DNA of 64,000 bases from Spirochaetia bacterium (GTDB taxonomy: Bacteria; Spirochaetota; Spirochaetia; WTKD01; G963693115). Position 1 is the stretch's first letter. Each line of letters starts with the position of its first letter. The notes beneath the pieces are model-generated. The model saw nothing but the letters and a program-made list of their open reading frames with translations, made no database searches and was not told where the DNA came from. This document shows positions 4,621-42,251 of the stretch, piece after piece. The position numbers and the translations under genes are program-made. The DNA lies in assembly GCA_965218205.1 (NCBI GenBank), contig OZ244590.1, forward strand, positions 840,857 to 904,856. Direction: 5' to 3'.

Positions 4621-7600
4621 ATGAAAACTGTACGTATTTGTTTATCAGCTATCATGTTAATAGCTGGTGCTATTGTTCTCACTTTTTTGGTTGTTAATAC
4701 ACAAGATGTAAAAAATAGTATAGGCAATTTTTTACTGTCTAGCTATTCCTTTATGGGTTACACTGTACCTCTTTTTTTCTTTTGGCTATTCTATATTATC
4801 ATGAGAAAAGATTCTGTATTACGTTCAGTGACATGGCCCTTGTTTGCATTGATTCCTTTCTTTTTCTTTAGCTTATCGTTTCGTACTTTCTTGTGGAGTG
4901 CAGGAGCAACATTGCCTCCTTTTTGGGCAGTAACACAGTTGTTTGGTCAAAGTGGAGCGGGAGTATTTTGGGTAGTGTTAGGAACAAGCACTGTATTAGC
5001 ACTGTCTCTATTGTATTATATATCAAGTGCAAGAGCTATAGTGCAACAAAATTCGTTACAGTACAATGAAAATATCACTCCTTATGCTCGATACCAAAAA
5101 AATCCTATTCTTACACAAAAAATAACTGCTCAGCAGTATAGTCCTACAACAGTATCTTCACAATCTATGTATCATCATGAGAGTGTTCATGATACCGCTC
5201 TTAAGAATGAAGCTCCTGCTGTTGCCTTTACTAAAAGAGAAGTTTCTCCTATAGATGCTTCTCAAGAGAGAGGCAATGAACAAAAGGATATGCATTTACA
5301 ATATGCTTCATATCCAACAGGGCTAGAAACAGAGAGAAATGAAGAAATACCCCTTTCAAGAAATGATTCTCGGTATATTCTTTTCTTTCATAAAGATAAC
5401 TCTGTACGTAAACAGTTATATTATACTGAATACGAACGTGAGCTTTTACAGGATCGTATTCCTATAGGAGTAGAAGGATTTACTAATGTTCCTAAAGATT
5501 CTTCTGTGCAAGAAAAGAAGCATACTATTACTACTGCAAGTGAACCACGCAATAGTATAGCCTCTAACAGTAGTAGACTGTTGTCGAAGCATGACACTGA
5601 CAATAGTAATGCACAAGAGGGAGCAAGAGGAGAGTCAAGGACTGCTGTGCTGGATCGTGTATCTCATGAAAATGAAGTGTTTAGTAATGATGAAGTTGAT
5701 ATTTTTGATATACATACTACAGATACCCTTATAGAAGCAAACAACAATAATGATGAGAATGCTTTTTTACAATTAGATGAAAATGATGAAATGCTTGCTT
5801 ATCAGAAAGAGTTTGAGACTGAAGAGTTAGAGTATGCACTAGATGATACTGATTTTGATGGGTATTTTGATGAATCTATATCTGATGCCGATAATTCTCG
5901 TATGCAACAAGATAAACAAGCACCTGTATTTGTAATAGAGGATAGTCATAAAAAGCAGGATGTATATGAAGATGAAGGAGTGCATACTAAAGAATCTATA
6001 CATAAAGAGTTAGATGAGATAGTGGAAAAAAAGCTAAAGATGCAACAGCAAGAAAATGCTGATGTTTCGAAAGAGCAATCAGTGTCTCCTTCTTTACAGA
6101 AAAATAATACTATAGTGAATGCACAGCAGGCTACGGAAGATGCCCATATATCCCATACACAAAGTGAAGAAAGTAACAAAACAGGAGATAATGATACTTT
6201 TGCTGATATTAGTGCTGATACTATTAACAAGGGAGACATACCAATATCTGAGTCTTTTAGCAGAAAGAGTGGCACTATGCTTACAAAAGAACATATTGTA
6301 GATGCAAGTGAGACTGATTCAAATGCACCTATAGATATGAAAAAAAAAACCACTAAAACAGCCGCTTCCTCTTCACAGTTAAAGAAATGTAAAAAGAAGT
6401 ACTTTATTCCAATATCTGGAGTCTTAAATCCTCCAATACAAGTATCATCTTTAGATACTTCTGCTTTACAAGAAATATCGCAACGACTTGAAGTAACATT
6501 ACAAGAGTTTAGTATTCAAGCAAAAGTTGTATCTGTGTGTAGAGGACCAGTAGTAACATTGTTTGAAATAGTACCTGCATCAGGAGTGAGGGTACGTCGT
6601 ATTGTTGAGCTGAGTGATAATATTGCATTGCGTTTAGCGGCTCCAAGTATACGTATTGTGGCTCCTATTCCTGGGAAAGAAGCGGTAGGTATTGAGGTCC
6701 CAAATAAAAACAGTGATATTGTGAGTTTTTCTGAACTTATATCTCAAAGTGAGTTTCATAATAAAAATTTTGTGTTGCCAATAGCACTTGGTAAAAGTAT
6801 TCTTGCAAAAACAGTTGTTGTTGATCTTGCAAAAACTCCTCATATGCTTATTGCTGGTGCTACTGGGAGCGGTAAATCAGTGTGTGTTAACTCTATTATT
6901 TGTTCGCTCCTGTATAGTTGTGAACCTGAAAATGTCAAACTTATTCTTATTGATCCTAAGATTGTTGAGTTGAGTTTTTATAATGATATTCCTCACTTGC
7001 TTACTCCCGTAATAAGTGATCCTGTTAAGTCAGTAAAAGTATTGCATTGGTGTGTAGAGGAAATGGAACGAAGATATGCTATGCTTGAACAGTATAATGT
7101 AAGAGAAATAGAAAGCTATAACAAGAAAATTTATATGCATAATCCTAATGCACAAAAGATGAGCTATATAGTTATTATCATAGACGAATTTGCTGATTTA
7201 ATGATGACAAGCGGTAAGGAAATAGAAACGCTTGTATCGCGCATTACGGCTAAATCAAGAGCTATAGGGATACATCTTGTTATTGCTACTCAGAGACCAT
7301 CGACTGATGTTATTACTGGACTTATTAAATCTAATGTTCCTACTCGTATATCGTTTATGGTTGCCAGTAAAATAGATTCTCGGATTATACTTGATGTAAA
7401 CGGTGCAGAAAAATTGCTTGGAAAAGGAGATATGCTCTATTCTTCGGCACAACATCCTTTTCCTGATAGATTACAAGGAGCATATCTTGAAGAGGGAGAA
7501 GTAGAGCGGGTGGTAGAACAAGTAAAGCAAATAGGAGGAAGTCCACAATATATGGATGAATCTCTATTTGAACAAGATAAACAAGAAGGAGAAGGCATTG

Positions 7601-7794
7601 GAGGGGTAGATGATTTATTATGGGATCAGGCAATAGAAGAGGTTATACAAAGCAGAAGGGCTTCTGCGTCTCATTTACAACGGAGATTTAAGATAGGGTA
7701 TAATAGAGCAGCAAGGCTTATTGATGATATGGAATACAAGGGGATTATTGGTCCACAACAAGGAGGAAAACAACGAGAAGTACTTATTGCATGA
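4621..7794 (+). CDS. ftsK: DNA translocase FtsK.
   Basis: N-terminal multi-TM domain, a long acidic low-complexity linker, a motor domain with Walker A GATGSGKS and Walker B IIIDEFADL, and a C-terminal gamma winged-helix (SASHLQRRFKIGYNRAARLID). Confidence 0.9.
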   Translation: MKTVRICLSAIMLIAGAIVLTFLVVNTQDVKNSIGNFLLSSYSFMGYTVPLFFFWLFYIIMRKDSVLRSVTWPLFALIPFFFFSLSFRTFLWSAGATLPPFWAVTQLFGQSGAGVFWVVLGTSTVLALSLLYYISSARAIVQQNSLQYNENITPYARYQKNPILTQKITAQQYSPTTVSSQSMYHHESVHDTALKNEAPAVAFTKREVSPIDASQERGNEQKDMHLQYASYPTGLETERNEEIPLSRNDSRYILFFHKDNSVRKQLYYTEYERELLQDRIPIGVEGFTNVPKDSSVQEKKHTITTASEPRNSIASNSSRLLSKHDTDNSNAQEGARGESRTAVLDRVSHENEVFSNDEVDIFDIHTTDTLIEANNNNDENAFLQLDENDEMLAYQKEFETEELEYALDDTDFDGYFDESISDADNSRMQQDKQAPVFVIEDSHKKQDVYEDEGVHTKESIHKELDEIVEKKLKMQQQENADVSKEQSVSPSLQKNNTIVNAQQATEDAHISHTQSEESNKTGDNDTFADISADTINKGDIPISESFSRKSGTMLTKEHIVDASETDSNAPIDMKKKTTKTAASSSQLKKCKKKYFIPISGVLNPPIQVSSLDTSALQEISQRLEVTLQEFSIQAKVVSVCRGPVVTLFEIVPASGVRVRRIVELSDNIALRLAAPSIRIVAPIPGKEAVGIEVPNKNSDIVSFSELISQSEFHNKNFVLPIALGKSILAKTVVVDLAKTPHMLIAGATGSGKSVCVNSIICSLLYSCEPENVKLILIDPKIVELSFYNDIPHLLTPVISDPVKSVKVLHWCVEEMERRYAMLEQYNVREIESYNKKIYMHNPNAQKMSYIVIIIDEFADLMMTSGKEIETLVSRITAKSRAIGIHLVIATQRPSTDVITGLIKSNVPTRISFMVASKIDSRIILDVNGAEKLLGKGDMLYSSAQHPFPDRLQGAYLEEGEVERVVEQVKQIGGSPQYMDESLFEQDKQEGEGIGGVDDLLWDQAIEEVIQSRRASASHLQRRFKIGYNRAARLIDDMEYKGIIGPQQGGKQREVLIA

Positions 7795-7817
7795 TAATAC
7801 TATTGGAGTAAAAAGTA

Positions 7818-8573
7818 CTATGTAATATTACGTTCTTTTCGTATGCTATCCCATGCGTTTTGTATTTCCAAAAAACGTTTCTTTGCCTGTTCTATCATAG
7901 AAGGAGACATTCCTTTGCTTTTTAGCATATCAGGATGATATTCTTTTACTAGCCGCTTGTATGTTTTTTTGATTTCAATATCGCTTGCATCTTTGCTAAC
8001 ACCGAGTATGTGATACGACTGCTCAGTGCTTGCTTGAAATGAATTCATCATATGATGTAATTCACTCATGCTTATTGAAAATATTCTTGCAACACTTTGT
8101 AGTATACTTTCTTCTTCGGATGATATTACTCCATCTGCTGATGCTATGCCTGCAAGCTGATAGAGTAGTTGTCTTTCTACTTGGGGGGCATTATGAAATA
8201 AATTGTGAAATTCATGTGCGAGCTCGTCAATGCTTTTTGTTTCGTTTTTTGCATTATTAAAATAGTGTATTGCTGAACTCTTGTACTCTGTATTAAGATT
8301 TAGTTTATTGATAAGATCAACTACATAGTCTCCTTCCTGTTTTGATATAGTTCCATCTGCTTTTGCTATTTTTCCTAACAGGGTAAAAAAGGTATAGAAG
8401 TATAATTCTTGCATTTCTTGAATTCTACTTCCATTAAATGTACTAAATATACTTGAGTATCCTCGTCTTGCTCTTGCATTTAAGAATAGATTGCCAAGAA
8501 ACATTCCAAGAAAAACACCAAAAATACTGCGAAAAATATAATAGCCAAGTATGGCTCCAATTAGCATGCCCAT
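7818..8573 (-). CDS. djlA: DjlA-like co-chaperone with an N-terminal TM helix, a TerB-like domain and a C-terminal J domain.
   Basis: C-terminal J domain with YHILGVSKDASDIEIKKTYKRLVKEYHPD (HPD motif). The upstream tellurite-resistance TerB-like region and the N-terminal hydrophobic helix match DjlA architecture. Confidence 0.7.
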   Translation of the reverse strand: MGMLIGAILGYYIFRSIFGVFLGMFLGNLFLNARARRGYSSIFSTFNGSRIQEMQELYFYTFFTLLGKIAKADGTISKQEGDYVVDLINKLNLNTEYKSSAIHYFNNAKNETKSIDELAHEFHNLFHNAPQVERQLLYQLAGIASADGVISSEEESILQSVARIFSISMSELHHMMNSFQASTEQSYHILGVSKDASDIEIKKTYKRLVKEYHPDMLKSKGMSPSMIEQAKKRFLEIQNAWDSIRKERNIT

Positions 8574-8575
8574 AT

Positions 8576-10054
8576 TTATAATTCCTTATAACTTTTTTCT
8601 CTTTTTTCTATTAATATATCACGTAACTCTTTTAATGTTTTGTTGATAGATACCTTGTACAGATGAGGGTTTAATAATCGCTTGTAGCTGTGGTCAAGGC
8701 ATATGAAATTGTTTGCTACTTGTTGTTTGATGGAGCTAAGACTAGTATGTAGTTTTTTCTGTCCTTTGTGTAAAACACACGCAAGGAGTGGAAAGGCTTG
8801 TATATTATTGGGAAGTTGAAATTTACGAGTATCAAGATACGGATGATATACTGTCTGTAACGAAAAAGAGGTGTTTGTAGGGACATCTGTAGTATGTTCA
8901 TGTACCACTACATCAGCAACATACGATCGATTAGTATTTGTTTGTTGATAACATCGGTATATTTGTTTGATGCCAGGAAGTGAATTTTTTTCTATATTAT
9001 TGGATAATTTTAATAATGGTTGTATACGCTTGTTACCAGTATCAGAATCTATTGTTTCTTTTGCACTTAGCTTGTATACTCCACTAAGGCTTTCTTCAAT
9101 ACTATTTGCCACAAGTTTTGTTCCTATTCCCCAACTATCGACAGGGCAATTATTTGCGGTAAGATCGGATATGATATACTCGTCTAAGTTATTTGAAGCA
9201 ACAATAAATGCCTCTGTTAATCCTGCTTTGTTAAGTCCTTTGCGTACAGCATGTGAAAGATAGTCTATGTCACCACTATCAAGGCGTACCCCAAAATTTT
9301 TTCCTTGTTTTTGTAACATTTTTCCTACCTGTATAGCTGCAGGTAGTCCACTGCTAATGGTATTGTAGGTATCTAATAGAAATACTGACATATCGGGGTA
9401 CATGCGAGCATAGGTATTAAAGGCTTCTATTTCATTTTCAAAATTCATGATCCAAGAATGCGACATAGTTCCAATATAAGGAATACTAAATTCTTTGCAT
9501 GCAGCTACATTAGATGTAGCACTTGTTCCACCAATATATGCAGCTCTGCTTGCTAACATAGCACCACTTGGTCCAGGTGCTCTACGTAATCCCATCTCAA
9601 ATATTTTTTTTCCTTTTGCTGCATAGGACATACGAGCGGTTTTTGTGGAAATATAACTACTGTAGTTAATGAAGTTTAGAATTAGCCCTTCTATAAGTTG
9701 AGCTTCTGCTACAGGAGCATGTACACGAATAAGCGGTTCGTTAGGGAAACATACAGTTCCTTCTGGTACGGCATATATTGTGCCTCTAAATCGAAAATGA
9801 GAAAGATGATCGAGAAAGCTTTTTGTAAACTGCTTTGTGCTGTGTAAAAAATCTATATCTTCTTTTTTGAAATGCAAATTACTAATAGTATCAAGCAAGG
9901 GATCTAATCCTGAAAAAACAATATAGCCTCCATGCGGAGCACTACGAAAAAACATATCGCATACCACATTATAATCATGCTTAGCATTGTAATACCCTTG
10001 CATCATAGTGAGTGTGTAAAAATCAGTAAATAATCCGCTTAAGTTAAAATCCAC
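8576..10054 (-). CDS. pncB: Nicotinate phosphoribosyltransferase.
   Basis: N-terminal TDFYTLTMMQGYY motif and overall NAPRTase length and domain order. Confidence 0.85.
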   Translation of the reverse strand: MDFNLSGLFTDFYTLTMMQGYYNAKHDYNVVCDMFFRSAPHGGYIVFSGLDPLLDTISNLHFKKEDIDFLHSTKQFTKSFLDHLSHFRFRGTIYAVPEGTVCFPNEPLIRVHAPVAEAQLIEGLILNFINYSSYISTKTARMSYAAKGKKIFEMGLRRAPGPSGAMLASRAAYIGGTSATSNVAACKEFSIPYIGTMSHSWIMNFENEIEAFNTYARMYPDMSVFLLDTYNTISSGLPAAIQVGKMLQKQGKNFGVRLDSGDIDYLSHAVRKGLNKAGLTEAFIVASNNLDEYIISDLTANNCPVDSWGIGTKLVANSIEESLSGVYKLSAKETIDSDTGNKRIQPLLKLSNNIEKNSLPGIKQIYRCYQQTNTNRSYVADVVVHEHTTDVPTNTSFSLQTVYHPYLDTRKFQLPNNIQAFPLLACVLHKGQKKLHTSLSSIKQQVANNFICLDHSYKRLLNPHLYKVSINKTLKELRDILIEKREKSYKEL

Positions 10055-10159
10055 CTATAATAGTATATCAGTAATCAAAAAAATGTGTGTTAAGAAGAGG
10101 AACTTATACAGACTCAAACTTGAAAGATGGTATTATTTGTTACTCTAGTGTAATACTAT

Positions 10160-10981
10160 TTAGTATTCTGTATTAGCTGTATAAGATTGTTGTAGGGTAG
10201 CAGTTATTTCTGTTTCAAACCATTTCACAAGGGCAAACATTCTATATAAAAGGCTTTTTGTTGCTCGTAACCGTATTCCTTCAAAAGGCATACTAATATT
10301 ACTATAGCTAACAGCATATATTGTAAATGTATTTTCTTTTCTTTGAATAAGAATATTGTTCAATAAAGTCTTTGGTGATGCAATAAGAATAAAAATATTA
10401 TAAAAAACATGCTCTAAATTTTTAATTGAAATGAGAAATTCATGTGAGTCTTTATACATAATGTCATAACTAAACAGCCCTTTGCCAAAAGAGCTATCGT
10501 ACTTAAAAATAGTTGTGTTCATTGATGGTTGAAGGGTAGAAGGAACTATGTCTGCTATGGGAGTTTTATCATCCTTTGATACTGCAGTATATATATCCTT
10601 AATAAAAGTGCGATATGTCTGACGACTGTTAGAGTAGTATGTTATATTTTTTTGAGAGCGTATCGAAAGTAAGGTTTTTAATGTGAGTAAATCAATCTCA
10701 GTATCTGTCATTGTTTCAAGATGTTCTTTGGGTATAGTAAAAGAGTAGTGTAGCTCGCTCCCTATGTTAGGGGTTTGCTCTTCTATTGTCTCTTGTACTG
10801 TATCAATGAGTACAGAAGCAGGAGCTAGCTGAATAGAGAAAGGTTGAGTGTATAAAAAATGAGGAAACTCTGGAGCAGGAATTTTTTCTTCTGCATATGC
10901 CAAGATATGAGCAAAAAGTATAAAGCACGTTATCATTCCATAACGTAGGGTACTGCTATGATTATATATAAAAAAATTCAC
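10160..10981 (-). CDS. Hypothetical secreted protein (273 aa).
   Basis: N-terminal signal peptide (MITCFILFAHILAYA); no recognised domain. Confidence 0.5.
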   Translation of the reverse strand: MNFFIYNHSSTLRYGMITCFILFAHILAYAEEKIPAPEFPHFLYTQPFSIQLAPASVLIDTVQETIEEQTPNIGSELHYSFTIPKEHLETMTDTEIDLLTLKTLLSIRSQKNITYYSNSRQTYRTFIKDIYTAVSKDDKTPIADIVPSTLQPSMNTTIFKYDSSFGKGLFSYDIMYKDSHEFLISIKNLEHVFYNIFILIASPKTLLNNILIQRKENTFTIYAVSYSNISMPFEGIRLRATKSLLYRMFALVKWFETEITATLQQSYTANTEY

Positions 10982-34935: not shown

Positions 34936-35120
34936 TAGTAACATATCCAATAGGTAGATCATATTTAGGGATGCAGTAGTGTATTGAAAAAATATGCACA
35001 AAGATTAAATTAGATAATAAAGTATGAGAAAATATATAAATGTACATAAAAAATAAGATATTTTTATGTATTATACTATCATTATTAGATAAAATACTAT
35101 ATACTTAAAACAGAGGCTGA

Positions 35121-35579
35121 GTGAGAATGCAAAGAGGACTTTATGATGTCATTGATTTTTCAAAAAGGGTATTGGTAGATATTCCTTTTGGTATCACAAA
35201 TCTAAAATTACAAAAATTAATGTACTTTATCTATGGGACCTATTATTGCGAAACAGATAAGGAATTATTTAATGAAAGACCACAAGCATGGGATTATGGT
35301 CCTGTATTTCCTAAAGTCTTTTATAAATACAGAAGCAGTGCTGGTGGAGATATAGATAATACTCACATTTTTTCTGAACTAGAAATTGACGATAAGAAAG
35401 TAAGAAATATAAAAGAGGCAGTGCTAAACCAATTAGCCGATAAATCTGATTCTAAGTTAATTGGTATGACACATATAGATAATGCTGCTTGGAGTCGTGT
35501 CTATAAACCTGGGGTAAGAGGCATACTTTTAGATCTAAAGGATATTAAGAAGGATTTTGCTAAATATGTCAGAAAATGA
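35121..35579 (+). CDS. Panacea-domain (DUF4065) protein, a putative PanA-type antitoxin.
   Basis: KLQKLMYFIYGTYY...FNERPQAWDYGPVFPKVFYKY closely matches the Panacea/DUF4065 core (KLQKLLYF...F.AW.YGPV.P.VY). Confidence 0.7.
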   Translation: MRMQRGLYDVIDFSKRVLVDIPFGITNLKLQKLMYFIYGTYYCETDKELFNERPQAWDYGPVFPKVFYKYRSSAGGDIDNTHIFSELEIDDKKVRNIKEAVLNQLADKSDSKLIGMTHIDNAAWSRVYKPGVRGILLDLKDIKKDFAKYVRK

Positions 35580-35928
35580 ATCAGAAGATACATTAGAATA
35601 TGATTACAATGATCCACAAGTTCAAGAAAAAAATAAAGACGATAATAGAGAACAAGAGTTAGAGAAATTAAGAGAAAAAGTAAATCAACTAGAAGCTGAA
35701 AGACAAAAATTAGCTGCATTAAGTTCAACATATATAAGTATTATTGTGATTGGAAGTGCTTTGCTTTTTAATATCTATATATTTCATAATTTTAATTTCA
35801 ATATAGTGGGATCTATTATTATAGGGTTAATTGAGGTGATAGCACTGCTTATAATAGCAAAAATGTATAAGATAAGCGTCATCAATAATCTGTGGGAAGA
35901 AATTACATCGCTTTTTAAGAAACGATAA
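35566..35928 (+). CDS. Small membrane protein (acidic N-terminus, coiled coil, two TM helices), a putative PanT-like toxin.
   Basis: The ATG at 35566 overlaps the 3' end of the upstream Panacea gene by 14 nt; the ORF track uses TTG at 35557. C-terminal hydrophobic helices: YISIIVIGSALLFNIYIF...IVGSIIIGLIEVIALLIIA. Confidence 0.5.
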   Translation: MSENESEDTLEYDYNDPQVQEKNKDDNREQELEKLREKVNQLEAERQKLAALSSTYISIIVIGSALLFNIYIFHNFNFNIVGSIIIGLIEVIALLIIAKMYKISVINNLWEEITSLFKKR

Positions 35929-36027
35929 AAAATAACAATACTTACATCAGCGTTCTCCTTTTTTGCATGTAATGTTTGAATTTACATGTATGTAAGCCTT
36001 AAAAGTGCAAAAAATTCTCATTTTTAC

Positions 36028-36059
36028 TTGATTTTTTTTTTTTTTTTTTCTTTTACAAT
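36028..36059 (+). promoter_or_regulatory. Candidate sigma-70-type promoter (TTGATT, 20-nt spacer, TACAAT) whose spacer is a T18 homopolymer.
   Basis: TTGATT at 36028-36033 and TACAAT at 36054-36059, about 40 nt upstream of the first dynamin-like gene start. Confidence 0.3.
36032..36049. repeat. Homopolymeric T18 tract.
   Basis: 18 consecutive T residues read directly from the sequence. Confidence 0.95.
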
Positions 36060-36099
36060 AAAGTAAGTTATAGAAACAAATATAAAGAGGCATAATAAT

Positions 36100-37797
36100 A
36101 TGAGAAAAACATATCTCCATTTTTTACAAGAAATGGAAAAAGAATTACAAACGATTGATTATGATACCCAAAAGGTACGTGATTTACAACAGTCCATAGA
36201 ATCGAAAGAGCTATTGCTGCCAGTGATAGGGCAGTTTAGCTCTGGGAAAAGTACGCTCCTCAACTCGTTTATGGGGAGAGATATACTGCCAGTGGGCATT
36301 ACGCCTGAGACAGCACTGGCATCAGAGCTGAGATATGCAAGTGATGAAAGAATAGAGGCTATCAAAAAAGATGGGGGAGTCACAACATTTTCAATAGACG
36401 AAATAGAAAAGATAAAGGAAAGAGCAAAAGAGTTTTTGTATCTTACGTTTTTTATCAATAGTAATGTTGTACGTGATATTGCTCCGTTAATCCTTGTTGA
36501 TATGCCAGGCTTTAGTGCAGCCAATGAGTTTCACCAACAGGCTATTATGGAATATCTCAACAAAGGAGTGCATTATATCTGTCTTATCAGTGTTGAAGAG
36601 GGAACTATTCAAAAATCTATGGAAATACAGCTGAGGGATGTTAAAGAGTTTGAAAGAAAATTTTCAGTATTTTTAAGCAAGTGTAATCTCCGTTCTCCAG
36701 AGGAATCAAAGGAAATAGCCACTAATATACAAGAACAGCTCGAAGATAATTTTGACGAACATATCTCTGTTGTGCCAATAGATGACAATGGAGGCGAAAG
36801 TCTTGGTACAGTCATGCAAGAGATACATATTTCTGAGCTTGAGAAGCAAGTATTTTTCTCAGGAGTCGAAGCATTATATAGAGATACTTTAGGGAGCATC
36901 AATACAGAAATAGCATCTCTCACAAAAAGCAAAGAACAGAACGATGATGCCATTACAGCACTCAAAGAAAGTGTAGCAAAGATTGAACAAAAACGTGACC
37001 AGCTTATGAATGATGCTCGCAATGCCTACACAGAGCAACATGCCCGTCAGATTATTGAAGCAGTAGGCTCTGATCTTTCAAGCAGTGTAGAGCAGTTTGT
37101 ATCTATTGCAATGTCAGGAAACTCTGATGAGATGTCACGACAAATATCGGAGGTAGCACGTTCCTCCTTAATTTCAAAAGTGAAAGAAGTTATGACTACC
37201 ATAAGCAATAGTGTTATTGATACATTTCAACTTAGCATACGGGGTATTGAGACGAATGTATCGGGCTATACTTCTAATGTTTCATTGCTTGAGAATCTTA
37301 CAGATACAGTAAAAGGGAGAATGTCAGGTATTGAACAGGGCATGACGAATATGGTAGCTAAACGTCAAGAACAAGAAGCTAAAGGTAGAATGTATAGATC
37401 TATTACAACTGTTCTAGGACTTACAACTAAATTTGTTGTTCCAGCAGTAGAAATTTTAATTATATTTTTGCCAGATATATTGAATAGTCTTTTTAAGAAA
37501 TCGCGAGAAGAAAAACAAAGAGAACAAATCAGATCTACATTGCTCACACAGACATTTCCATCAATAAAAAGAGAAATAGCAACTAAAGTAGAATCGTTAT
37601 TGGAAGAGCAAACAAAAAATGTAATACAAGGCATTGGTACTCAGTATCAGGAATTGTTGGAACAAAAAAGCAAAGAGATTGAAAAAGCAGAGGAAGAAAA
37701 AAATAAAAAAATACAGGATATTGAACAGGTAATAGCTACAAAAAAAGAATGTGTGGCACATATTACCTCTCTTGCAAACGAGAAATTATACGGATAA
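36100..37797 (+). CDS. Bacterial dynamin-like GTPase (LeoA/BDLP-like), paralogue 1.
   Basis: G1 GQFSSGKSTLLNS, G2 region GITPET, G3 DMPGF. A long helical stalk contains a hydrophobic paddle-like segment (ITTVLGLTTKFVVPAVEILIIFLP). Confidence 0.7.
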   Translation: MRKTYLHFLQEMEKELQTIDYDTQKVRDLQQSIESKELLLPVIGQFSSGKSTLLNSFMGRDILPVGITPETALASELRYASDERIEAIKKDGGVTTFSIDEIEKIKERAKEFLYLTFFINSNVVRDIAPLILVDMPGFSAANEFHQQAIMEYLNKGVHYICLISVEEGTIQKSMEIQLRDVKEFERKFSVFLSKCNLRSPEESKEIATNIQEQLEDNFDEHISVVPIDDNGGESLGTVMQEIHISELEKQVFFSGVEALYRDTLGSINTEIASLTKSKEQNDDAITALKESVAKIEQKRDQLMNDARNAYTEQHARQIIEAVGSDLSSSVEQFVSIAMSGNSDEMSRQISEVARSSLISKVKEVMTTISNSVIDTFQLSIRGIETNVSGYTSNVSLLENLTDTVKGRMSGIEQGMTNMVAKRQEQEAKGRMYRSITTVLGLTTKFVVPAVEILIIFLPDILNSLFKKSREEKQREQIRSTLLTQTFPSIKREIATKVESLLEEQTKNVIQGIGTQYQELLEQKSKEIEKAEEEKNKKIQDIEQVIATKKECVAHITSLANEKLYG

Positions 37798-37839
37798 CAA
37801 GAAGAAAAAACAATACTAACTATTAAAAGAGGTATATAT

Positions 37840-40026
37840 ATGAATAAAGAAGAATTATTGACAAAGCTAAAAGGTATTGAAGCTATTGTTAATAGCAATC
37901 ATACTGTTATTGGAAAGGATGCAGAATATCTAGCAGATGACTGTGGCATAGAAGAATCATCGAAAATACAAGATGCTATGAAAGATACTGAATACAAAGG
38001 GCGTCTATTAAAAATTGGTATCATAGGCAGGGTAAAGGCAGGAAAATCTTCATTATTAAATTCACTTATCTTTGAAGGAAAGGATATTCTCCCAAAGGCA
38101 GCCACTCCCATGACTGCCAATCTCACTGTGCTGTCCTATGGTGAGAGGAATGCAGCAGAAATAGAATATTTTAGTTCTGAGGATAGAGAAGATATTAAAA
38201 AGAAACATGACATATACGAAAAAAGAATGAATGATTTAATAGAACAATACCAACAGGAACATAAAGAAAAGCAAAAAGAAGAGCCAGCTGACAAAGAAAG
38301 GATAGAACGCAGAGCAAAGCGAGAATTAAAAGGCAGTATTGAAGAAGCCTCGTATGATCAGTACAAGCGTATGCAGAAGTCAGGGGTAGATCCAACTCGC
38401 CTTGAAGAGAAAACAACGCTAGAATCAAATACAATGAAGGAGCTAGCCAATGAGCTAATAGACTATGTCTCGGCTGAAGGAACATACATGCCATTTACAA
38501 GAAGTATCCGTGTGGCATTGCCGAATGAATTTCTCAAAGACATAGAAATTGTTGATACGCCTGGATTGAATGATCCCGTAGTATCAAGAGAAGAAAGAAC
38601 AAGGGAGCTATTACGGTACTGTGATGTTATTTTTATTGTGAGTCCTTCGGGGCAGTTTATGACCGAACAAGACATAGAATTATTACAGCGTATATCGACA
38701 AAAGAGGGACTGAGAGAGCTGTATGTGGTAGCAAGTCAGGTTGACACACAGCTATTTGGGAGCGAAAAAAAAGCTACAGTCATTGATGCTATTGATGGAC
38801 TTAGCAACATACTTGCTACAAGATTGCAGGAGGTAATTTCAAAACTAAAAGAACATTCCCCTGAGGTAGGAGATAAATTGAATAAGCTCATTGAAGATAA
38901 TCGTGAGCGTATTATATGCTGTTCGGGGATAGCACAATCCATTCTTTTGCGTATGTATGACTCTGGCACAATAACGGATGAAGGACAAACAACAGTATGG
39001 AATAATCTCAAACATCATTATCCAAATAATTTTTCTGATGGAGACAAAACTACATCGGAAGAAAGTCTAAAAGTACTTGCAAACATTACAAAAGTGGAAG
39101 AAAAAATACGATATGTACGCTCTCAAAAAGATAAGATTTTTGAAGACAAGCAGAAAGATTATATACATACAAAATCACAAGCACTGAGTAGCTATCAACA
39201 AGCACTCCTTGATGCAGTAGAGAAAAAAATACAAGAACTTCAAGAAGCTGATATAGATGAGCTGAAAAAGAAAAAAGAAAAACTACAAAAAATCAAAAGT
39301 ACAGGGGAAGGACAGCTTAGTGATACATTTAATAGTTCGGTACGCGATCTATATGTGTGTATGAAGAAGAAACTCAGTGATGGAATAGAAGTGCTATTTG
39401 GAGACACATCAAAAAGAGTAGGAGATGCTGAAGGATCTGTTACTGAAACATATACTACGGGATGGTGGTTGTGGAAAAAAGATCATCATAGAGATGTGAC
39501 AACAGTACGAGCAGGAGATATACGAGATAAGCTGGAAACTATAACATCAAAGATAAAATTAAAGATAGAAGATATAGCAAATGAGAAAATAAAAGCATGG
39601 AAGAGTAAAATACGAAAGGATATTTTATATTCTATTAGGGATGTAGTGGATGATAAATACTTGAATGATTTGACAATTAAAAGTAGTTTTCATGTTATTT
39701 TCTCAAAAATTGTAGACCCTAATATATCTTTTGAAGATAATAGTCTTAATTCTACTCTACAACAATCAGAGATACTTAAAGGATATGAAGCAAAGGAGTA
39801 TATGAAGGAAGCTAGCAACTATATAAATACATTTAAGAGTTCTGTCATTAAAAGAATAGAACAATATACAGAGCAACTAAAAAATACACTTTCCAAATAT
39901 GAAATTGGAACAGAAATATTTGCAAACATTGATGAGACTATCACTGCTTTTGAAAAAGATATAGAAAATAAAAAGGCGATATTAGCGCAATATGACACAA
40001 TAGAAAAAAATTTAAAGGAATTATAA
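37840..40026 (+). CDS. Bacterial dynamin-like GTPase, paralogue 2 (728 aa).
   Basis: G1 GRVKAGKSSLLNSLIF, G2 TPMTANLTVL, G3 DTPGLND; long coiled-coil stalk. Confidence 0.7.
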   Translation: MNKEELLTKLKGIEAIVNSNHTVIGKDAEYLADDCGIEESSKIQDAMKDTEYKGRLLKIGIIGRVKAGKSSLLNSLIFEGKDILPKAATPMTANLTVLSYGERNAAEIEYFSSEDREDIKKKHDIYEKRMNDLIEQYQQEHKEKQKEEPADKERIERRAKRELKGSIEEASYDQYKRMQKSGVDPTRLEEKTTLESNTMKELANELIDYVSAEGTYMPFTRSIRVALPNEFLKDIEIVDTPGLNDPVVSREERTRELLRYCDVIFIVSPSGQFMTEQDIELLQRISTKEGLRELYVVASQVDTQLFGSEKKATVIDAIDGLSNILATRLQEVISKLKEHSPEVGDKLNKLIEDNRERIICCSGIAQSILLRMYDSGTITDEGQTTVWNNLKHHYPNNFSDGDKTTSEESLKVLANITKVEEKIRYVRSQKDKIFEDKQKDYIHTKSQALSSYQQALLDAVEKKIQELQEADIDELKKKKEKLQKIKSTGEGQLSDTFNSSVRDLYVCMKKKLSDGIEVLFGDTSKRVGDAEGSVTETYTTGWWLWKKDHHRDVTTVRAGDIRDKLETITSKIKLKIEDIANEKIKAWKSKIRKDILYSIRDVVDDKYLNDLTIKSSFHVIFSKIVDPNISFEDNSLNSTLQQSEILKGYEAKEYMKEASNYINTFKSSVIKRIEQYTEQLKNTLSKYEIGTEIFANIDETITAFEKDIENKKAILAQYDTIEKNLKEL

Positions 40027-40029
40027 AAC

Positions 40030-41814
40030 ATGGACAATAAGAAACTACAAGGACTAGAAGAGAAATATACACAAGCAAAGGATAAACTAGACTTAGTAAG
40101 TGCTATTCTTAGTGCAGAACTCCCTAGCAATGCTGGATTGATTGAATTTAAGCGGTTATTACGTGAAGATTTTTTTAACTTTGCTAATGAAGAATCTTCT
40201 GTAGCAGAAGAGGCTGCATGTGTGTTAAGATTACAGAACATTGAAAAAGAGCTAGAACTTATGAGCAATTATTCTGCCATTATAGGAAAAACACGTATTG
40301 CTGTTGCAGGGGGCTTTAGCAGTGGAAAATCTAGTTTCTTAAATGGAATTATCCCTGATACAAACATTAAGCTCCCTACGGGAGTAAATCCTGTAACGGC
40401 AATTCCTACCTATATCATATCTCAACAATCAAAGAGTGCTGATACTACTATTACTGCTTTTTCCACAAAGGGAGGAAATACGCCTATCTCTAGTGAAATA
40501 TATAATAAATTATCCCATGATTTTATCAATTCACTAGGGTTTAATCTAAAAGATATTCTTGCGTTTATGGCAATAACCATTTCAGAAAAAAGATATGAGC
40601 ATATTTGCTTTATTGATACCCCTGGAATTTCAAATGATGAGTCTGATAAAAAAACAGCATCTGAGTTTGTGGAGCAATCTGATATAGTACTGTGGTGTAT
40701 TGATATTGAAAGAGGTACTGTGCCAAAAACAGATCTTGAATTTATAAGGGAACATTTAAAAGAAAAAACAATCTATGTAGTGATGAGCAAGGCTGATATA
40801 AAATCCTCTGAGGAAATTGAAGATATACTTGATGAGGTGGAAGAAATGCTCCACGATGAAGATATTGCCATAGAGGGAATCTCAGCCTGTAGTTTTCTTA
40901 ATGGCAAAGAGAAGACAACATCAAGAAAAATGAGTATATACGATTTTCTCACATTGTATAACAAAAACAGTACAAAGCATGAAAAAGAAACACTCATTGC
41001 TCGCGTAGAGGAGGTTTGTGATATATACGATAAGGCTATCAATGAAAGTATCAAATTTAGCAAAGAGCATAAGGAAGAATTACGCTCTATTGGGCTTGAT
41101 GTACTAGCATTAGGAGAGGAGGATGAGGAGGAATTAGCTAGAAAGAGGTTAAAGGCATTCAAGATGAAATTCGGAGAGGCAAGTAAGGCATTCAAGGTAT
41201 ACCAAGTGAAATTAAGAGAGACATTTGAGGCATTCAAGGTGAAAGTTGGAGAGGCATCAGGGGTGAAAGTTGGAGAGGTATTAGAATCAGCATTCAAGAT
41301 GAAATGGGGAGAGGCATTCGGACATGGGTTAGAGGCATTCGGAGAGGTGGTATCTGAGATAAAATTAAAAGAGGCATTTGAAGTATTAATAGGGGCATCT
41401 GAGGCATTAGGAGAGGCATTAGATGTATTTGAAGAGGTGGCATCTGACGCGAAATTAGAAGAGGCATCTGAGGCATTCGGAAAGGCATTTCAGGTATTTA
41501 AAGGAGCATTAGAGGCATTCGGAGATGCATCTGAGGCATTCGGAGAGGTGGTATCTGAGACGAAATTAGAAGATGCATTTGAAGAGGTGGCATTAGAGGC
41601 ATTAGGAGATGCATTAGAGAGATTTGGTGTGAAATTAAGCGAGATAGAAAAAAGCGGCAGTAACATCAGCATAAGCGATAAACTAAGAGAGATGCAGCAA
41701 AAATTTGATTATAAGAAACATCAAGGGCAATTAAAGAAATTAGCTACTATCAGAACACAAATGATAGGTGCTATACACGATACATTTAAGGCGAGTAATA
41801 GCAAAAAAAGATAA
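40030..41814 (+). CDS. Bacterial dynamin-like GTPase, paralogue 3, with a C-terminal EAFG/EALG tandem-repeat region.
   Basis: G1 GGFSSGKSSFLNGII, G3 DTPGISND, G4 VMSKAD. The start is 4 nt after the previous gene's stop. Confidence 0.7.
   Translation: MDNKKLQGLEEKYTQAKDKLDLVSAILSAELPSNAGLIEFKRLLREDFFNFANEESSVAEEAACVLRLQNIEKELELMSNYSAIIGKTRIAVAGGFSSGKSSFLNGIIPDTNIKLPTGVNPVTAIPTYIISQQSKSADTTITAFSTKGGNTPISSEIYNKLSHDFINSLGFNLKDILAFMAITISEKRYEHICFIDTPGISNDESDKKTASEFVEQSDIVLWCIDIERGTVPKTDLEFIREHLKEKTIYVVMSKADIKSSEEIEDILDEVEEMLHDEDIAIEGISACSFLNGKEKTTSRKMSIYDFLTLYNKNSTKHEKETLIARVEEVCDIYDKAINESIKFSKEHKEELRSIGLDVLALGEEDEEELARKRLKAFKMKFGEASKAFKVYQVKLRETFEAFKVKVGEASGVKVGEVLESAFKMKWGEAFGHGLEAFGEVVSEIKLKEAFEVLIGASEALGEALDVFEEVASDAKLEEASEAFGKAFQVFKGALEAFGDASEAFGEVVSETKLEDAFEEVALEALGDALERFGVKLSEIEKSGSNISISDKLREMQQKFDYKKHQGQLKKLATIRTQMIGAIHDTFKASNSKKR
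41150..41640 (+). repeat. Degenerate in-frame tandem repeat array (GAGGCATTCGGAGA-like units) inside the dynamin-like paralogue 3 CDS.
   Basis: Repeated DNA units encode repeated peptides such as EAFGEVVSE(I/T)KL(K/E)(E/D)AFE, EASEAFG and EALGDAL. Spurious minus-strand ORFs in the same interval are by-products. Confidence 0.75.
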
Positions 41815-41828
41815 ATATTATAATGTAT

Positions 41829-42251
41829 CTACATACACAACTCTTCGTATTCTAGCTGTTGTGGTGAATGTGTTGCTGCAGTTGCGGTGGGAGTTTTGAA
41901 TATAGTGTGTGTAAACACCTGTTGCCAGTGCAGTATTTTTGCTGTTTCTTTTGTTTTTTGTCTAAACAATGTGAGTGTTGCTTCGTATGTATCGCTAAGT
42001 TCATATATGAAGTATAAGTATATTTCGTATAGTTTTGATTGAGAGAAGTATGTATTGTTATATGCGGTATGTACTGCATCAATAGTATATAACAGACTGA
42101 GAAGATGCTGTACATGGTAGTCTATTTCTGACATATGTATAGTCTCTGTGTCGGTATGTGTTAAGTGTGTTTGTATGTGTGTACATAATTCAATAGCGGT
42201 ATGTACAGAGTCAATTTGTTTTTTAATACTATAGGCCTTAGTTTCTTGCAT
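41829..42251 (-). CDS. Hypothetical protein downstream of fliS (possible flagellar-associated protein).
   Basis: ORF only; the call rests on its position next to fliS. Confidence 0.3.
   Translation of the reverse strand: MQETKAYSIKKQIDSVHTAIELCTHIQTHLTHTDTETIHMSEIDYHVQHLLSLLYTIDAVHTAYNNTYFSQSKLYEIYLYFIYELSDTYEATLTLFRQKTKETAKILHWQQVFTHTIFKTPTATAATHSPQQLEYEELCM

What the first reader, a model, noticed from the sequence alone, without database searches (positions are those of the whole stretch)
36100..41814. Operon of three tandem dynamin-like GTPases (LeoABC/Eleos-like) adjacent to a toxin-antitoxin-like pair
Three consecutive, translationally coupled genes (565, 728 and 594 aa) each have G1 (GxxSxGKSxxLN), G2 (T), G3 (DxPG) and helical stalk regions characteristic of bacterial dynamin-like proteins; paralogue 1 has a hydrophobic paddle. 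Paired or triple BDLP loci (LeoA/LeoBC, DynA, the 'Eleos' defence system) mediate membrane remodelling and phage defence. A three-gene version in an AT-rich spirochete-like chromosome, directly downstream of the elongasome operon and a Panacea-type TA, is unusual. The combination (TA pair, phase-variable promoter, triple DLP with a repeat-expanded third member) may function as one accessory/defence island.
Basis: partly seen in the sequence, partly recalled or inferred. Interest (0 to 1): 0.7.

Follow-up and report, generated by a model that had tools for sequence, protein, structure and literature searches.

The report
Conserved mobile three-dynamin GTPase cassette
The three neighbouring genes really are three different dynamin-like GTPases, and they form a three-gene cassette that recurs in the same order across many bacterial phyla and on plasmids, often beside defence genes, and that I found described in no searched paper or defence-gene library.

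Summary
Observation confirmed. ORFs 36100-37797 (P1, 565 aa), 37840-40026 (P2, 728 aa) and 40030-41814 (P3, 594 aa) all pass Pfam Dynamin_N.

They are three distinct families, not recent duplicates:
- P1 is a short dynamin-like protein (DLP) with a conserved hydrophobic hairpin. Its best solved relative is Cj-DLP2.
- P2 is a full BDLP/Cj-DLP1-like DLP.
- P3 is a mitofusin-like G domain plus one helical bundle, with variable ends.

The LeoABC/Eleos label is only remote homology. Eleos is a two-DLP system, and its models are matched weakly and only in part.

The trio is not a spirochaete oddity. In 49 of 52 metagenome loci with enough upstream sequence, P1-P2-P3 recur in the same order. So do genomes of several phyla and plasmids of Pseudomonas, Escherichia coli and Calditerrivibrio.

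Half of the non-redundant loci carry a WYL-WCX regulator directly upstream, and neighbours include restriction, Zorya-like and other defence genes.

In this lineage the about 5.9-kb block is accessory: a relative with identical flanking synteny lacks it. The Panacea pair is an older resident of the site.

Trunk tips and P3 ends evolve fast, while G domains are conserved.

Most likely it is an inducible hetero-oligomeric membrane-remodelling or defence machine. That function is inferred, not shown.

The parts
35121..35579 (+). SocA/Panacea-domain protein (antitoxin-like). It is a neighbour of the cassette, not part of it.
   Evidence: Pfam SocA_Panacea 50 bits against a cut-off of 25.7. NCBIfam SocA_antitoxin 71.5 bits, below its equivalog cut-off of 190. 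It is retained in degenerate form at the empty site of L093.
35557..35928 (+). Small 123-aa protein with a charged N-terminal half and hydrophobic C-terminal segments, overlapping the Panacea gene. Candidate membrane toxin partner. A neighbour only.
   Evidence: Sequence; no significant family hit. Homologous but interrupted by stops in L093.
35929..41865 (+). Accessory segment of about 5.9 kb (promoter region plus three DLP genes), present here and in relatives about 95% identical in DNA, and absent from a more distant syntenic relative. The boundaries are good to about 30 nt.
   Evidence: About 57 nt of L093 (12226-12283) stand in place of window 35904-41894. The flanks align at 73-82%. L093 has no DLP ORF.
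36029..36060 (+). Promoter-like element: TTGATT, then a 20-nt spacer made mostly of T18 (36033-36050), then TACAAT. It lies 40 nt upstream of the P1 start codon.
   Evidence: The relative L002 has T16, giving an 18-nt spacer. Whether it acts as a promoter, or varies in phase, is inferred.
36100..37797 (+). P1: short DLP (565 aa) of the Cj-DLP2/LeoA size class. G1 is GQFSSGKST, G3 is DMPG, and G4 is the non-canonical SKCN.
   Evidence: Dynamin_N 66.6 bits. Best PDB sequence hit is 5owv_C, Cj-DLP2. It is 34-42% identical over its full length to the first gene of trios in three of the four other genomes compared; the fourth, Haemophilus, is 25%.
37411..37509 (+). P1 hydrophobic hairpin (aa 438-470, VLGLTTKFVVPAVEILIIFLPDIL), the predicted membrane-inserting tip. 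It lies inside a fast-evolving stretch.
   Evidence: Kyte-Doolittle 2.0, and conserved in 30 of 32 family representatives. dN is 0.11-0.30 over aa 361-480 against 0.007-0.02 elsewhere.
37840..40026 (+). P2: full-length BDLP/Cj-DLP1-like DLP (728 aa). G1 is GRVKAGKSS, G3 is DTPG, G4 is SQVD, and a helical insert sits inside the G domain.
   Evidence: Dynamin_N 84.5 bits. Best PDB sequence hit is 5owv_A. AlphaFold2 model with pLDDT 82.6; Foldseek best matches are SynDLP, Cj-DLP1, IniA and BDLP at E 1e-14 to 1e-11.
39280..39819 (+). P2 hypervariable trunk tip (aa 481-660), including the beta-hairpin at 531-557 whose loop reads GWWLWKK.
   Evidence: dN is 0.24-0.53, with dN/dS up to 1.6 at aa 541-600, against 0-0.05 in the G domain. 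Alignment to L002; position in the model; the same stretch is variable across the family.
40030..41139 (+). P3 conserved core (aa 1-370): three N-terminal helices, a G domain (G1 GGFSSGKSS, G3 DTPG, G4 SKAD) and one long helix. This equals a mitofusin-like G domain plus helical bundle 1.
   Evidence: Dynamin_N 62.8 bits. The model is confident over aa 1-350, and Foldseek best matches are MFN1/2 minimal GTPase constructs, Fzo1, IniA and Cj-DLP2. It is 42-44% identical to the third gene of other trios.
41140..41814 (+). P3 strain-specific C-terminus, including a 7-residue-periodic Glu/Ala/Phe/Gly-rich repeat array. No homologue was found for it.
   Evidence: Tandem repeats. No database hit extends much beyond residue 410 (highest query cover 69%). 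Relatives L001 and L002 have unrelated, shorter C-termini. Modelled with low confidence, pLDDT 35-60.

Best explanation
The locus is one copy of a conserved, horizontally mobile three-gene cassette. Each gene encodes a different kind of dynamin-like GTPase, always in the order P1-P2-P3.

The three parts:
- P1 is a short DLP that inserts into the membrane through a conserved hydrophobic helix-Pro-helix hairpin.
- P2 is a full-length BDLP/Cj-DLP1-type DLP with a beta-hairpin at its trunk tip.
- P3 is a minimal DLP (G domain plus one helical bundle, as in mitofusin minimal GTPase constructs). Across the family its N-terminal coiled coil and its C-terminal domain are exchangeable.

Inferred mechanism:
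- By analogy with the solved Cj-DLP1/2 pair, which is inactive unless both partners are present, P1 and P2 form a heterotypic complex that binds and remodels the cytoplasmic membrane.
- P3 docks on that complex through G-domain or bundle contacts. It supplies a variable recognition or targeting module.

Inferred biological role: an inducible envelope-guarding or anti-phage/anti-plasmid function, related in kind to Eleos and DynA. Elsewhere the cassette is usually under a WYL-WCX repressor. Here it sits behind a poly-T-containing promoter.

Shown: gene content, folds, conservation of order, mobility, accessory status, the pattern of fast-evolving parts.
Inferred: complex formation, P3 as adaptor, the defence role.
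For: Three distinct families: each window protein aligns with its positional counterpart in other trios (P1 and P2 over their full length, P3 over its first 350-410 residues), at 34-44% identity to three of the four other genomes compared and 25-36% to the fourth, Haemophilus. The three proteins resemble each other only within the G domain.

Conserved order:
- Denitrovibrio, Haemophilus and an unnamed 3.5-Mb genome.
- 49 of 52 metagenome loci with at least 4.3 kb upstream of P3, falling into 51 clusters at 80% identity.
- Two of two loci sampled from the P2 side, Sulfurovum and Aliarcobacter.
- Plasmids of P. aeruginosa, Calditerrivibrio and E. coli.

Family size: 930 clusters at 50% identity with E at most 1e-30.

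Folds.

Membrane hairpin in P1.

Variable P3 ends: ankyrin, TPR, WG, FGE-sulfatase, helix-hairpin-helix, biotin-lipoyl-like and coiled-coil extensions.

Context:
- A co-oriented WYL-WCX regulator lies upstream in 11 of 22 non-redundant loci.
- Neighbours match type I and IIG restriction, DRT, IetA, Mokosh, Juk and PDC models, plus transposases and integrases.
- In P. aeruginosa the neighbours include an EH_Signature (ZorC-like) gene and a helicase.

Accessory status in this lineage.

Evolution: dN/dS is 0.27-0.56 for the three genes against 0.01-0.14 for most neighbours (0.24 for the adjacent 140-aa gene). Change is concentrated in the P1 and P2 tips and the P3 ends, while the G domains are nearly invariant.

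Biochemical and phage precedents.
Against: - No experiment bears on this cassette.
- None of the three proteins reaches any PADLOC 2.0 or NCBIfam family threshold.
- In this window the cassette is flanked by housekeeping genes (the rod-shape mreB-rodA operon, fliS, aro genes). It is not in a defence island, and there is no WYL gene.
- WYL regulators also control non-defence DNA-damage genes.
- Individual PADLOC hits among neighbours do not prove complete systems, and I could not compute a formal enrichment.
- dS is also raised in the hypervariable stretches, so recombination rather than positive selection may explain them.
- The window's P3 lacks about 77 N-terminal residues, including the transmembrane helix its closest relatives have. 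It also lacks 6 residues after DTPG, including a nearly invariant Tyr. Its 20-nt promoter spacer is suboptimal. This copy may therefore be weakly expressed or partly impaired.
Confidence: 0.6

Rival explanations
1. General membrane-repair or stress machine, as proposed for B. subtilis DynA, mycobacterial IniA/IniC and Cj-DLP1/2. The trio seals or remodels damaged cytoplasmic membrane after antibiotic or envelope stress. Any anti-phage effect would be a by-product.
For: P1 and P2 are closest to Cj-DLP2 and Cj-DLP1, BDLP and IniA, for which membrane tethering, fusion or fission has been shown. P1 carries a conserved membrane hairpin. In this window the neighbours are cell-envelope genes.
Against: A housekeeping repair role fits poorly with several results:
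- the patchy, plasmid-borne and transposon-flanked distribution;
- absence from a close syntenic relative;
- WYL-WCX regulators at half of the loci;
- exchangeable sensor-like domains on P3;
- fast-evolving tips.
Confidence: 0.22
2. Vesiculation or secretion factor, the role first proposed for ETEC LeoABC. The trio would promote outer-membrane vesicle release or host interaction in this spirochaete.
For: There is remote homology to LeoA and LeoBC, and the leo genes affect vesicle release in ETEC. Cj0411 is reported as a colonisation factor.
Against: None of the three proteins has a signal peptide-like N-terminus in the sequences read. The cassette occurs in free-living marine, sediment and hot-spring bacteria. 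The Leo operon itself has been reinterpreted as the defence system Eleos.
Confidence: 0.06
3. This particular copy is a decaying remnant: still open reading frames, but switched off or functionally impaired.
For: - P3 has lost the N-terminal transmembrane and coiled-coil segment present in L001 and L002, and 6 residues next to switch II.
- The promoter spacer is 20 nt, against 18 nt in L002.
- P3 carries a strain-specific low-complexity repeat expansion.
Against: - All three ORFs are intact, and every invariant family residue is kept.
- G domains are under strong purifying selection between strains, with dN about 0-0.02.
- N-terminal length varies widely across functional-looking P3 family members, with G1 at residue 92 to 495.
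Confidence: 0.12

Closest known systems
Campylobacter jejuni Cj-DLP1/Cj-DLP2 heterotypic pair (PDB 5OWV/5OXF; PMC6104087)
   Same: It has adjacent genes for one long BDLP1-like DLP and one short LeoA-subtype DLP. P2's best PDB sequence hit is Cj-DLP1, and P1's is Cj-DLP2. The P2 model matches Cj-DLP1 by fold.
   Different: - Gene order is reversed (short then long here).
- Sequence similarity is confined to the G domains.
- P2 has only about 55 residues before G1, against the 119-residue assembly domain of Cj-DLP1.
- There is a third, obligate-looking DLP (P3), whereas the C. jejuni operon's third gene is an HcpA-like beta-lactamase.
Eleos defence system (LeoA + LeoBC) and ETEC LeoABC (10.1101/2022.05.11.491447; PMC4159319)
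   Same: It is an operon of dynamin-like GTPases, accessory, often in defence islands. One partner carries a membrane-binding segment. Weak profile similarity exists: P1-family members hit LeoA and LeoBC at best E 4e-14 and 2e-11.
   Different: - Eleos has two DLPs. The 'three genes' of ETEC are one DLP plus a second split into LeoC (P-loop, switch 1) and LeoB (the rest).
- Here three complete G domains come from three families.
- Matches to the PADLOC models are partial, and P2 has none.
- NCBIfam LeoA_gen scores 23 bits against a cut-off of 325.
Mitofusin/Fzo1 minimal GTPase domain (G domain plus helical bundle 1)
   Same: The P3 core (three N-terminal helices, a G domain and one long helix) is most similar in fold to MFN1/MFN2/Fzo1 minimal constructs, at E 1e-11 to 1e-9.
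   Different: Sequence identity is only 13-16%. P3 has no second helical bundle and no transmembrane hairpin of the mitofusin type. Instead it carries exchangeable N- and C-terminal modules.
Bacillus subtilis DynA (two fused DLPs; phage and membrane-stress protection)
   Same: It combines more than one DLP unit in a single machine. A role in limiting phage damage has been reported (cited).
   Different: DynA is one fused polypeptide and a chromosomal housekeeping gene. The NCBIfam DynA model scores 24 bits against a cut-off of 1600 for P1.
wHTH-WYL-WCX (BrxR/CapW-type) regulated defence cassettes (PMC9122601; PMC11662680)
   Same: Half of the non-redundant trio loci have a co-oriented WYL-WCX gene directly upstream. 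This is the arrangement described for BREX, CBASS and other defence systems.
   Different: The window's copy has no WYL gene. Regulation of the trio by WYL proteins has not been tested.

Membership tests
Dynamin superfamily / bacterial dynamin-like proteins | G domain matching Pfam PF00350 Dynamin_N above the gathering score | tested here: met
   66.6, 84.5 and 62.8 bits against a cut-off of 27 for P1, P2 and P3.
Dynamin superfamily / bacterial dynamin-like proteins | G1 P-loop, G2 Thr, G3 DxxG and G4 motifs | tested here: met
   G1 and G3 are present in all three and invariant in each family. G4 is SKAD in P3 and SQVD in P2. In P1 it is SKCN, with Asn conserved where Cj-DLP2 has Asp. That is a deviation, not an absence.
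Dynamin superfamily / bacterial dynamin-like proteins | Helical neck/trunk bundles attached to the G domain | tested here: met
   P2 has full neck and trunk, and its best fold matches are SynDLP, Cj-DLP1, IniA and BDLP. P3 has the neck bundle only.
Dynamin superfamily / bacterial dynamin-like proteins | Oligomerisation-stimulated GTP hydrolysis and membrane binding | not testable with these tools
   This needs purified proteins. Only the hydrophobic hairpin of P1 speaks to membrane binding.
Eleos (LeoA + LeoBC) defence system | Two-gene (or split three-gene) operon encoding exactly two DLP units, LeoBC then LeoA | tested here: not met
   There are three complete G domains, in the order short, long, minimal.
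Eleos (LeoA + LeoBC) defence system | Full-length match to the LeoA and LeoBC profiles | tested here: not met
   PADLOC hits are partial (E 1.6e-6 to 5e-4 for P1, 2e-8 to 1e-6 for P3, none for P2). NCBIfam DLP_LeoA_gen scores 23.4 bits against 325.
Eleos (LeoA + LeoBC) defence system | Protection against phage that depends on the GTPase P-loops | not testable with these tools
   Experimental.
Cj-DLP1/DLP2-type heterotypic pair | Adjacent long BDLP1-like and short LeoA-subtype DLP genes | tested here: met
   P2 best matches 5owv_A and P1 best matches 5owv_C; the P2 fold agrees.
Cj-DLP1/DLP2-type heterotypic pair | N-terminal assembly domain (about 119 aa) on the long DLP that mediates pairing | tested here: inconclusive
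   P2 has three short helices (aa 3-51) before G1. This is about half the size of the Cj-DLP1 domain, and no sequence match to it was seen.
Cj-DLP1/DLP2-type heterotypic pair | 2:2 tetramer with mutual GTPase activation | not testable with these tools
   This needs biochemistry or multimer modelling, neither of which was available.
Panacea (PanA/SocA-like) toxin-antitoxin pair (neighbour) | Panacea-domain antitoxin next to a toxin gene | tested here: inconclusive
   The domain is above the Pfam cut-off (50 against 25.7 bits) but below the NCBIfam SocA equivalog cut-off (71.5 against 190). The overlapping 123-aa hydrophobic-tailed partner has no family hit, so its toxin role is inferred.
WYL-WCX-regulated defence cassette | wHTH-WYL-WCX regulator directly upstream and co-oriented | tested here: not met
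   It is absent from the window. It is present at 11 of 22 non-redundant trio loci elsewhere, and on the P. aeruginosa plasmid.

The most novel reading that the evidence does not exclude
The P1-P2-P3 trio is a distinct, widespread three-component dynamin-like immune system that has not been described. In this reading, a modular third dynamin (P3) with exchangeable repeat or ligand-binding domains senses an invader or envelope insult. It then switches on a P1/P2 membrane-remodelling engine, and expression is usually gated by a DNA-damage-sensing WYL-WCX repressor. The hypervariable trunk tips would play the role that loop L4 plays in antiviral Mx proteins (from my own knowledge, not checked here).
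Probability: 0.4. Interest if true: 0.8.

Novelty: new variant of a known kind. Interest (0 to 1): 0.62.

Why it matters
Work on bacterial dynamins has been organised around pairs: Cj-DLP1/2, LeoA/LeoBC, DynA's two fused halves, IniA/IniC.

A ternary cassette whose gene order is conserved across phyla adds a new element. Its third member is a minimal, domain-swapping dynamin. That suggests how a generic membrane-remodelling GTPase engine could be coupled to specific recognition. The same question is open for Eleos and for eukaryotic Mx, GBP and mitofusin systems.

The trio also occurs on E. coli IncF plasmids and P. aeruginosa megaplasmids. The idea can therefore be tested directly in model organisms rather than in an uncultured spirochaete.

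For genome annotation, the three genes are at present labelled only 'dynamin family protein'.

Tried and rejected
1. Era/EngA/Der-type GTPase: rejected. Those hits are short P-loop matches far below their cut-offs. Dynamin_N and the fold searches are decisive.
2. Membership of Eleos or LeoABC: rejected on architecture and profile scores.
3. Three recent tandem duplicates: rejected. The paralogues share only G-domain similarity, and each has full-length orthologues elsewhere.
4. Core gene of the lineage: rejected by the empty site in L093.
5. TA pair plus trio as a single island: rejected. The TA pair remains at the empty site.
6. Phage-borne element: no hit among 50,697 phage records or 2.9 million viral contigs.
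7. Target-site duplication: a 19-nt imperfect direct repeat (35852 and 41796) is not at the junction.
8. Known RNA element in or around the locus: none.
9. Consensus promoter and terminator scan: fewer promoter-like sites than in shuffled sequence, and the terminator-like count is within the shuffled range, so it was uninformative.
10. Literature searches for a three-dynamin operon or defence system: nothing found.
11. Naming the source organism: the window's genome could not be named. An identical P2 exists on a 2.36-Mb contig, but no name or gene record could be retrieved. The closest named record is 'MAG: Spirochaetia bacterium'.

Full report
**1. What is there**

Three same-strand ORFs occupy exactly the stated coordinates:
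- P1, 36100-37797, 565 aa
- P2, 37840-40026, 728 aa
- P3, 40030-41814, 594 aa

All three pass Pfam Dynamin_N far above the gathering score, at 66.6, 84.5 and 62.8 bits against 27. Hits to Era, Der, HydF and EF-Tu models are short P-loop matches far below their cut-offs.

G1 and G3 motifs are present in each protein. G4 is SKCN in P1, SQVD in P2 and SKAD in P3.

P1 and P2 are separated by 42 nt that carry an AAAGAGG ribosome-binding site. P2 and P3 are 3 nt apart and share a frame. No Rfam family matches the region.

**2. Three different kinds of dynamin-like protein (DLP)**

P1:
- Its best solved relative by sequence is Cj-DLP2 (5owv_C), as a single sequence and as a family profile.
- It carries a hydrophobic helix-Pro-helix hairpin at aa 438-470. 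This is conserved in 30 of 32 family representatives.

P2:
- Its best solved relative is Cj-DLP1 (5owv_A).
- Its AlphaFold2 model (pLDDT 82.6) matches SynDLP, Cj-DLP1, IniA and BDLP at E 1e-14 to 1e-11.
- A beta-hairpin at residues 531-557 sits between two very long helices, at the trunk tip.

P3:
- Residues 1-350 are modelled confidently as three N-terminal helices, a G domain and one long helix.
- The best fold matches are mitofusin-1/2 and Fzo1 minimal GTPase constructs, IniA and Cj-DLP2.
- The C-terminal 200 residues are a strain-specific array with a 7-residue period, rich in Glu, Ala, Phe and Gly, encoded by 21-nt and 111-nt repeats. No database hit reaches into it.

The three proteins resemble each other only within the G domain.

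**3. The trio is a conserved cassette**

P3 homologues (298 hits, about 40% identical over the N-terminal 60% only) led to loci in Denitrovibrio, Haemophilus haemolyticus and an unnamed 3.5-Mb genome. In each, two other Dynamin_N genes of about 580 and about 760 aa precede the P3 homologue.

Each window protein aligns with its positional counterpart (P1 and P2 over their full length, P3 over its first 350-410 residues). Identity is 34-44% to three of the four other genomes compared and 25-36% to the fourth, Haemophilus.

I classified ORFs in the best 80 with family HMMs built locally:
- 49 of 52 loci with at least 4.3 kb upstream of P3 have P1-P2-P3 on one strand.
- The three exceptions are one cluster with a truncated P2.
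- The loci form 51 clusters at 80% identity.

Sampling from the P2 side gave the trio in two of two cases, Sulfurovum and Aliarcobacter.

The trio is also on plasmids:
- P. aeruginosa megaplasmids.
- Calditerrivibrio pCALNI01.
- E. coli IncF plasmids, in 5 of 5426 complete genomes, always on a plasmid.

All of these genes are annotated only as 'dynamin family protein'.

A profile search of 1.84 billion cluster representatives found 930 P3-family clusters at E at most 1e-30. No phage record and no viral contig carries the family.

**4. Context elsewhere**

A co-oriented wHTH-WYL-WCX regulator lies upstream, usually directly, in 11 of 22 non-redundant loci with enough sequence. It is also present on the P. 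aeruginosa plasmid.

Other neighbours match type I and IIG restriction enzymes, DRT, IetA, Mokosh, Juk, PbeA and PDC models. They also match transposases, integrases and recombination genes. The P. aeruginosa copy adjoins an EH_Signature (ZorC-like) gene and a DEAD-box helicase.

This is suggestive of defence islands and mobile elements. I could not compute a formal enrichment.

Across the family, P3 carries exchangeable ends:
- N-terminal coiled coils of very different length (G1 at residue 92 to 495).
- C-terminal ankyrin, TPR, WG, FGE-sulfatase, helix-hairpin-helix or biotin-lipoyl-like domains.
- In E. coli, a short P3 followed by a separate, overlapping 829-aa gene.

**5. Context here**

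The closest named genome is a 'Spirochaetia bacterium' MAG.
- Two relatives about 95% identical in DNA (L001, L002) have the same locus.
- A relative with 80% identical RodA (L093) keeps the whole neighbourhood, from dnaG and rpoD through mreBCD, pbp2 and rodA on one side to fliS and aroDE on the other. It has no DLP gene.
- About 57 nt in L093 stand in place of window 35904-41894.

The block is therefore accessory.

The Panacea-domain gene and its small overlapping partner remain at the empty site, in degenerate form. They are an older resident of this site, not part of the cassette.

**6. Evolution between strains**

Compared with L002, most neighbours have dN/dS of 0.01-0.14 (0.24 for the adjacent 140-aa gene). 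P1, P2 and P3 have 0.27, 0.49 and 0.56.

The change is concentrated in three places:
- the P1 hydrophobic tip region (aa 361-480);
- the P2 tip (aa 481-660, with a ratio of 1.6 at aa 541-600);
- the P3 ends.

G domains have dN of about 0-0.02. dS is also raised in the hot spots, so allelic recombination is as likely as point-mutation selection.

The window's P3 differs from that of its relatives in three ways:
- It lacks about 77 N-terminal residues, including a transmembrane helix.
- It lacks 6 residues after DTPG.
- It has gained the repeat array.

The poly-T tract lies in the spacer of a -35/-10-like pair. It is T18 here (spacer 20 nt) and T16 in L002 (spacer 18 nt). This is compatible with slippage-controlled expression, but that is untested.

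**7. Comparison with known systems**

- ETEC LeoABC is two DLPs, one of them split. Eleos is a two-gene system.
- PADLOC LeoA/LeoBC and NCBIfam LeoA and DynA models are matched only weakly and in part.
- The nearest structural paradigm for P1 and P2 is the Cj-DLP1/2 pair, whose partners are inactive alone. Here the gene order is reversed, and a third DLP is added.
- Eight literature searches found no description of a three-dynamin operon. The library does not hold all journals, so prior description cannot be excluded.

**8. Verdict**

The Leo/Eleos label and the 'unusual spirochaete version' framing are wrong.

The best-supported reading has two parts:
- a conserved, mobile, ternary DLP machine (confidence high);
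- an inducible envelope-guarding or anti-invader role, with P3 as a modular adaptor (confidence moderate, inferred).

Noticed in passing
window 36029-36060; L002 12400-12460: The T18 tract fills the spacer between a -35-like TTGATT and a -10-like TACAAT, giving a 20-nt spacer. The close relative has T16, giving 18 nt. A length change of this kind could switch the operon on or off.
   Followed up: partly
window 36676-36687 (P1 aa 193-196); alignment A6: The G4 motif of the P1 family is SKxN. The Asn is at least 90% conserved, at the position where Cj-DLP2 has the Asp of NQKD. From general knowledge of GTPases, Asp-to-Asn at this position changes base specificity from guanine to xanthine. The natural nucleotide of P1 may therefore not be GTP.
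   Followed up: partly
window 40024-40074 versus L002 16437-16726: The P2 stop and the P3 start are in the same frame, one codon apart. Relative to L001 and L002 the window lacks about 230 nt here. That removes the N-terminal transmembrane helix and part of the coiled coil of P3.
   Followed up: partly
L100 4120-11708 (E. coli plasmid NZ_CP148279.1): This is a four-gene variant: P1, P2, a short 405-aa P3, and an 829-aa 'CFI-box-CTERM domain' protein that overlaps P3 by 8 nt and has no Pfam hit. The variable module of P3 may be encoded separately here.
   Followed up: partly
L028 7831-12592: One metagenome locus has two tandem P3 paralogues after P1-P2. The second has a biotin-lipoyl/HlyD-like barrel-sandwich C-terminal domain.
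   Followed up: no
L052-L054, about 7197-10248: This is the only exception cluster: a truncated P2-like gene (about 510 aa, with no G1 motif found) followed by P3, with no P1 in the 7 kb upstream.
   Followed up: no
L098 1-5216 (P. aeruginosa plasmid NZ_CP133095.1): The trio, with its WYL gene, lies next to an EH_Signature-domain gene and a DEAD/DEAH helicase (a ZorC/ZorD-like pair). An IS30 transposase and an integrase lie on the other side.
   Followed up: partly
L093 11336-12226 versus window 35032-35904: In the relative that lacks the trio, the genes for the Panacea-domain protein and its small hydrophobic-tailed partner are interrupted by stops. The pair is decaying there, while it is intact and under purifying selection in the window's lineage (dN/dS 0.06 and 0.14).
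   Followed up: partly
window 35852-35870 and 41796-41814: A 19-nt imperfect direct repeat (TAATAGCAAAAA..ATAA) is spaced 5944 nt apart, close to the size of the indel. It is not at the junction, so it is probably a chance match or an old recombination trace.
   Followed up: yes
window 41829-42251 (- strand): A 140-aa ORF with no family hit lies directly next to fliS. It is conserved in position in L001 and L093 (140 and 135 aa). It may be an unannotated flagellar chaperone-type gene.
   Followed up: no
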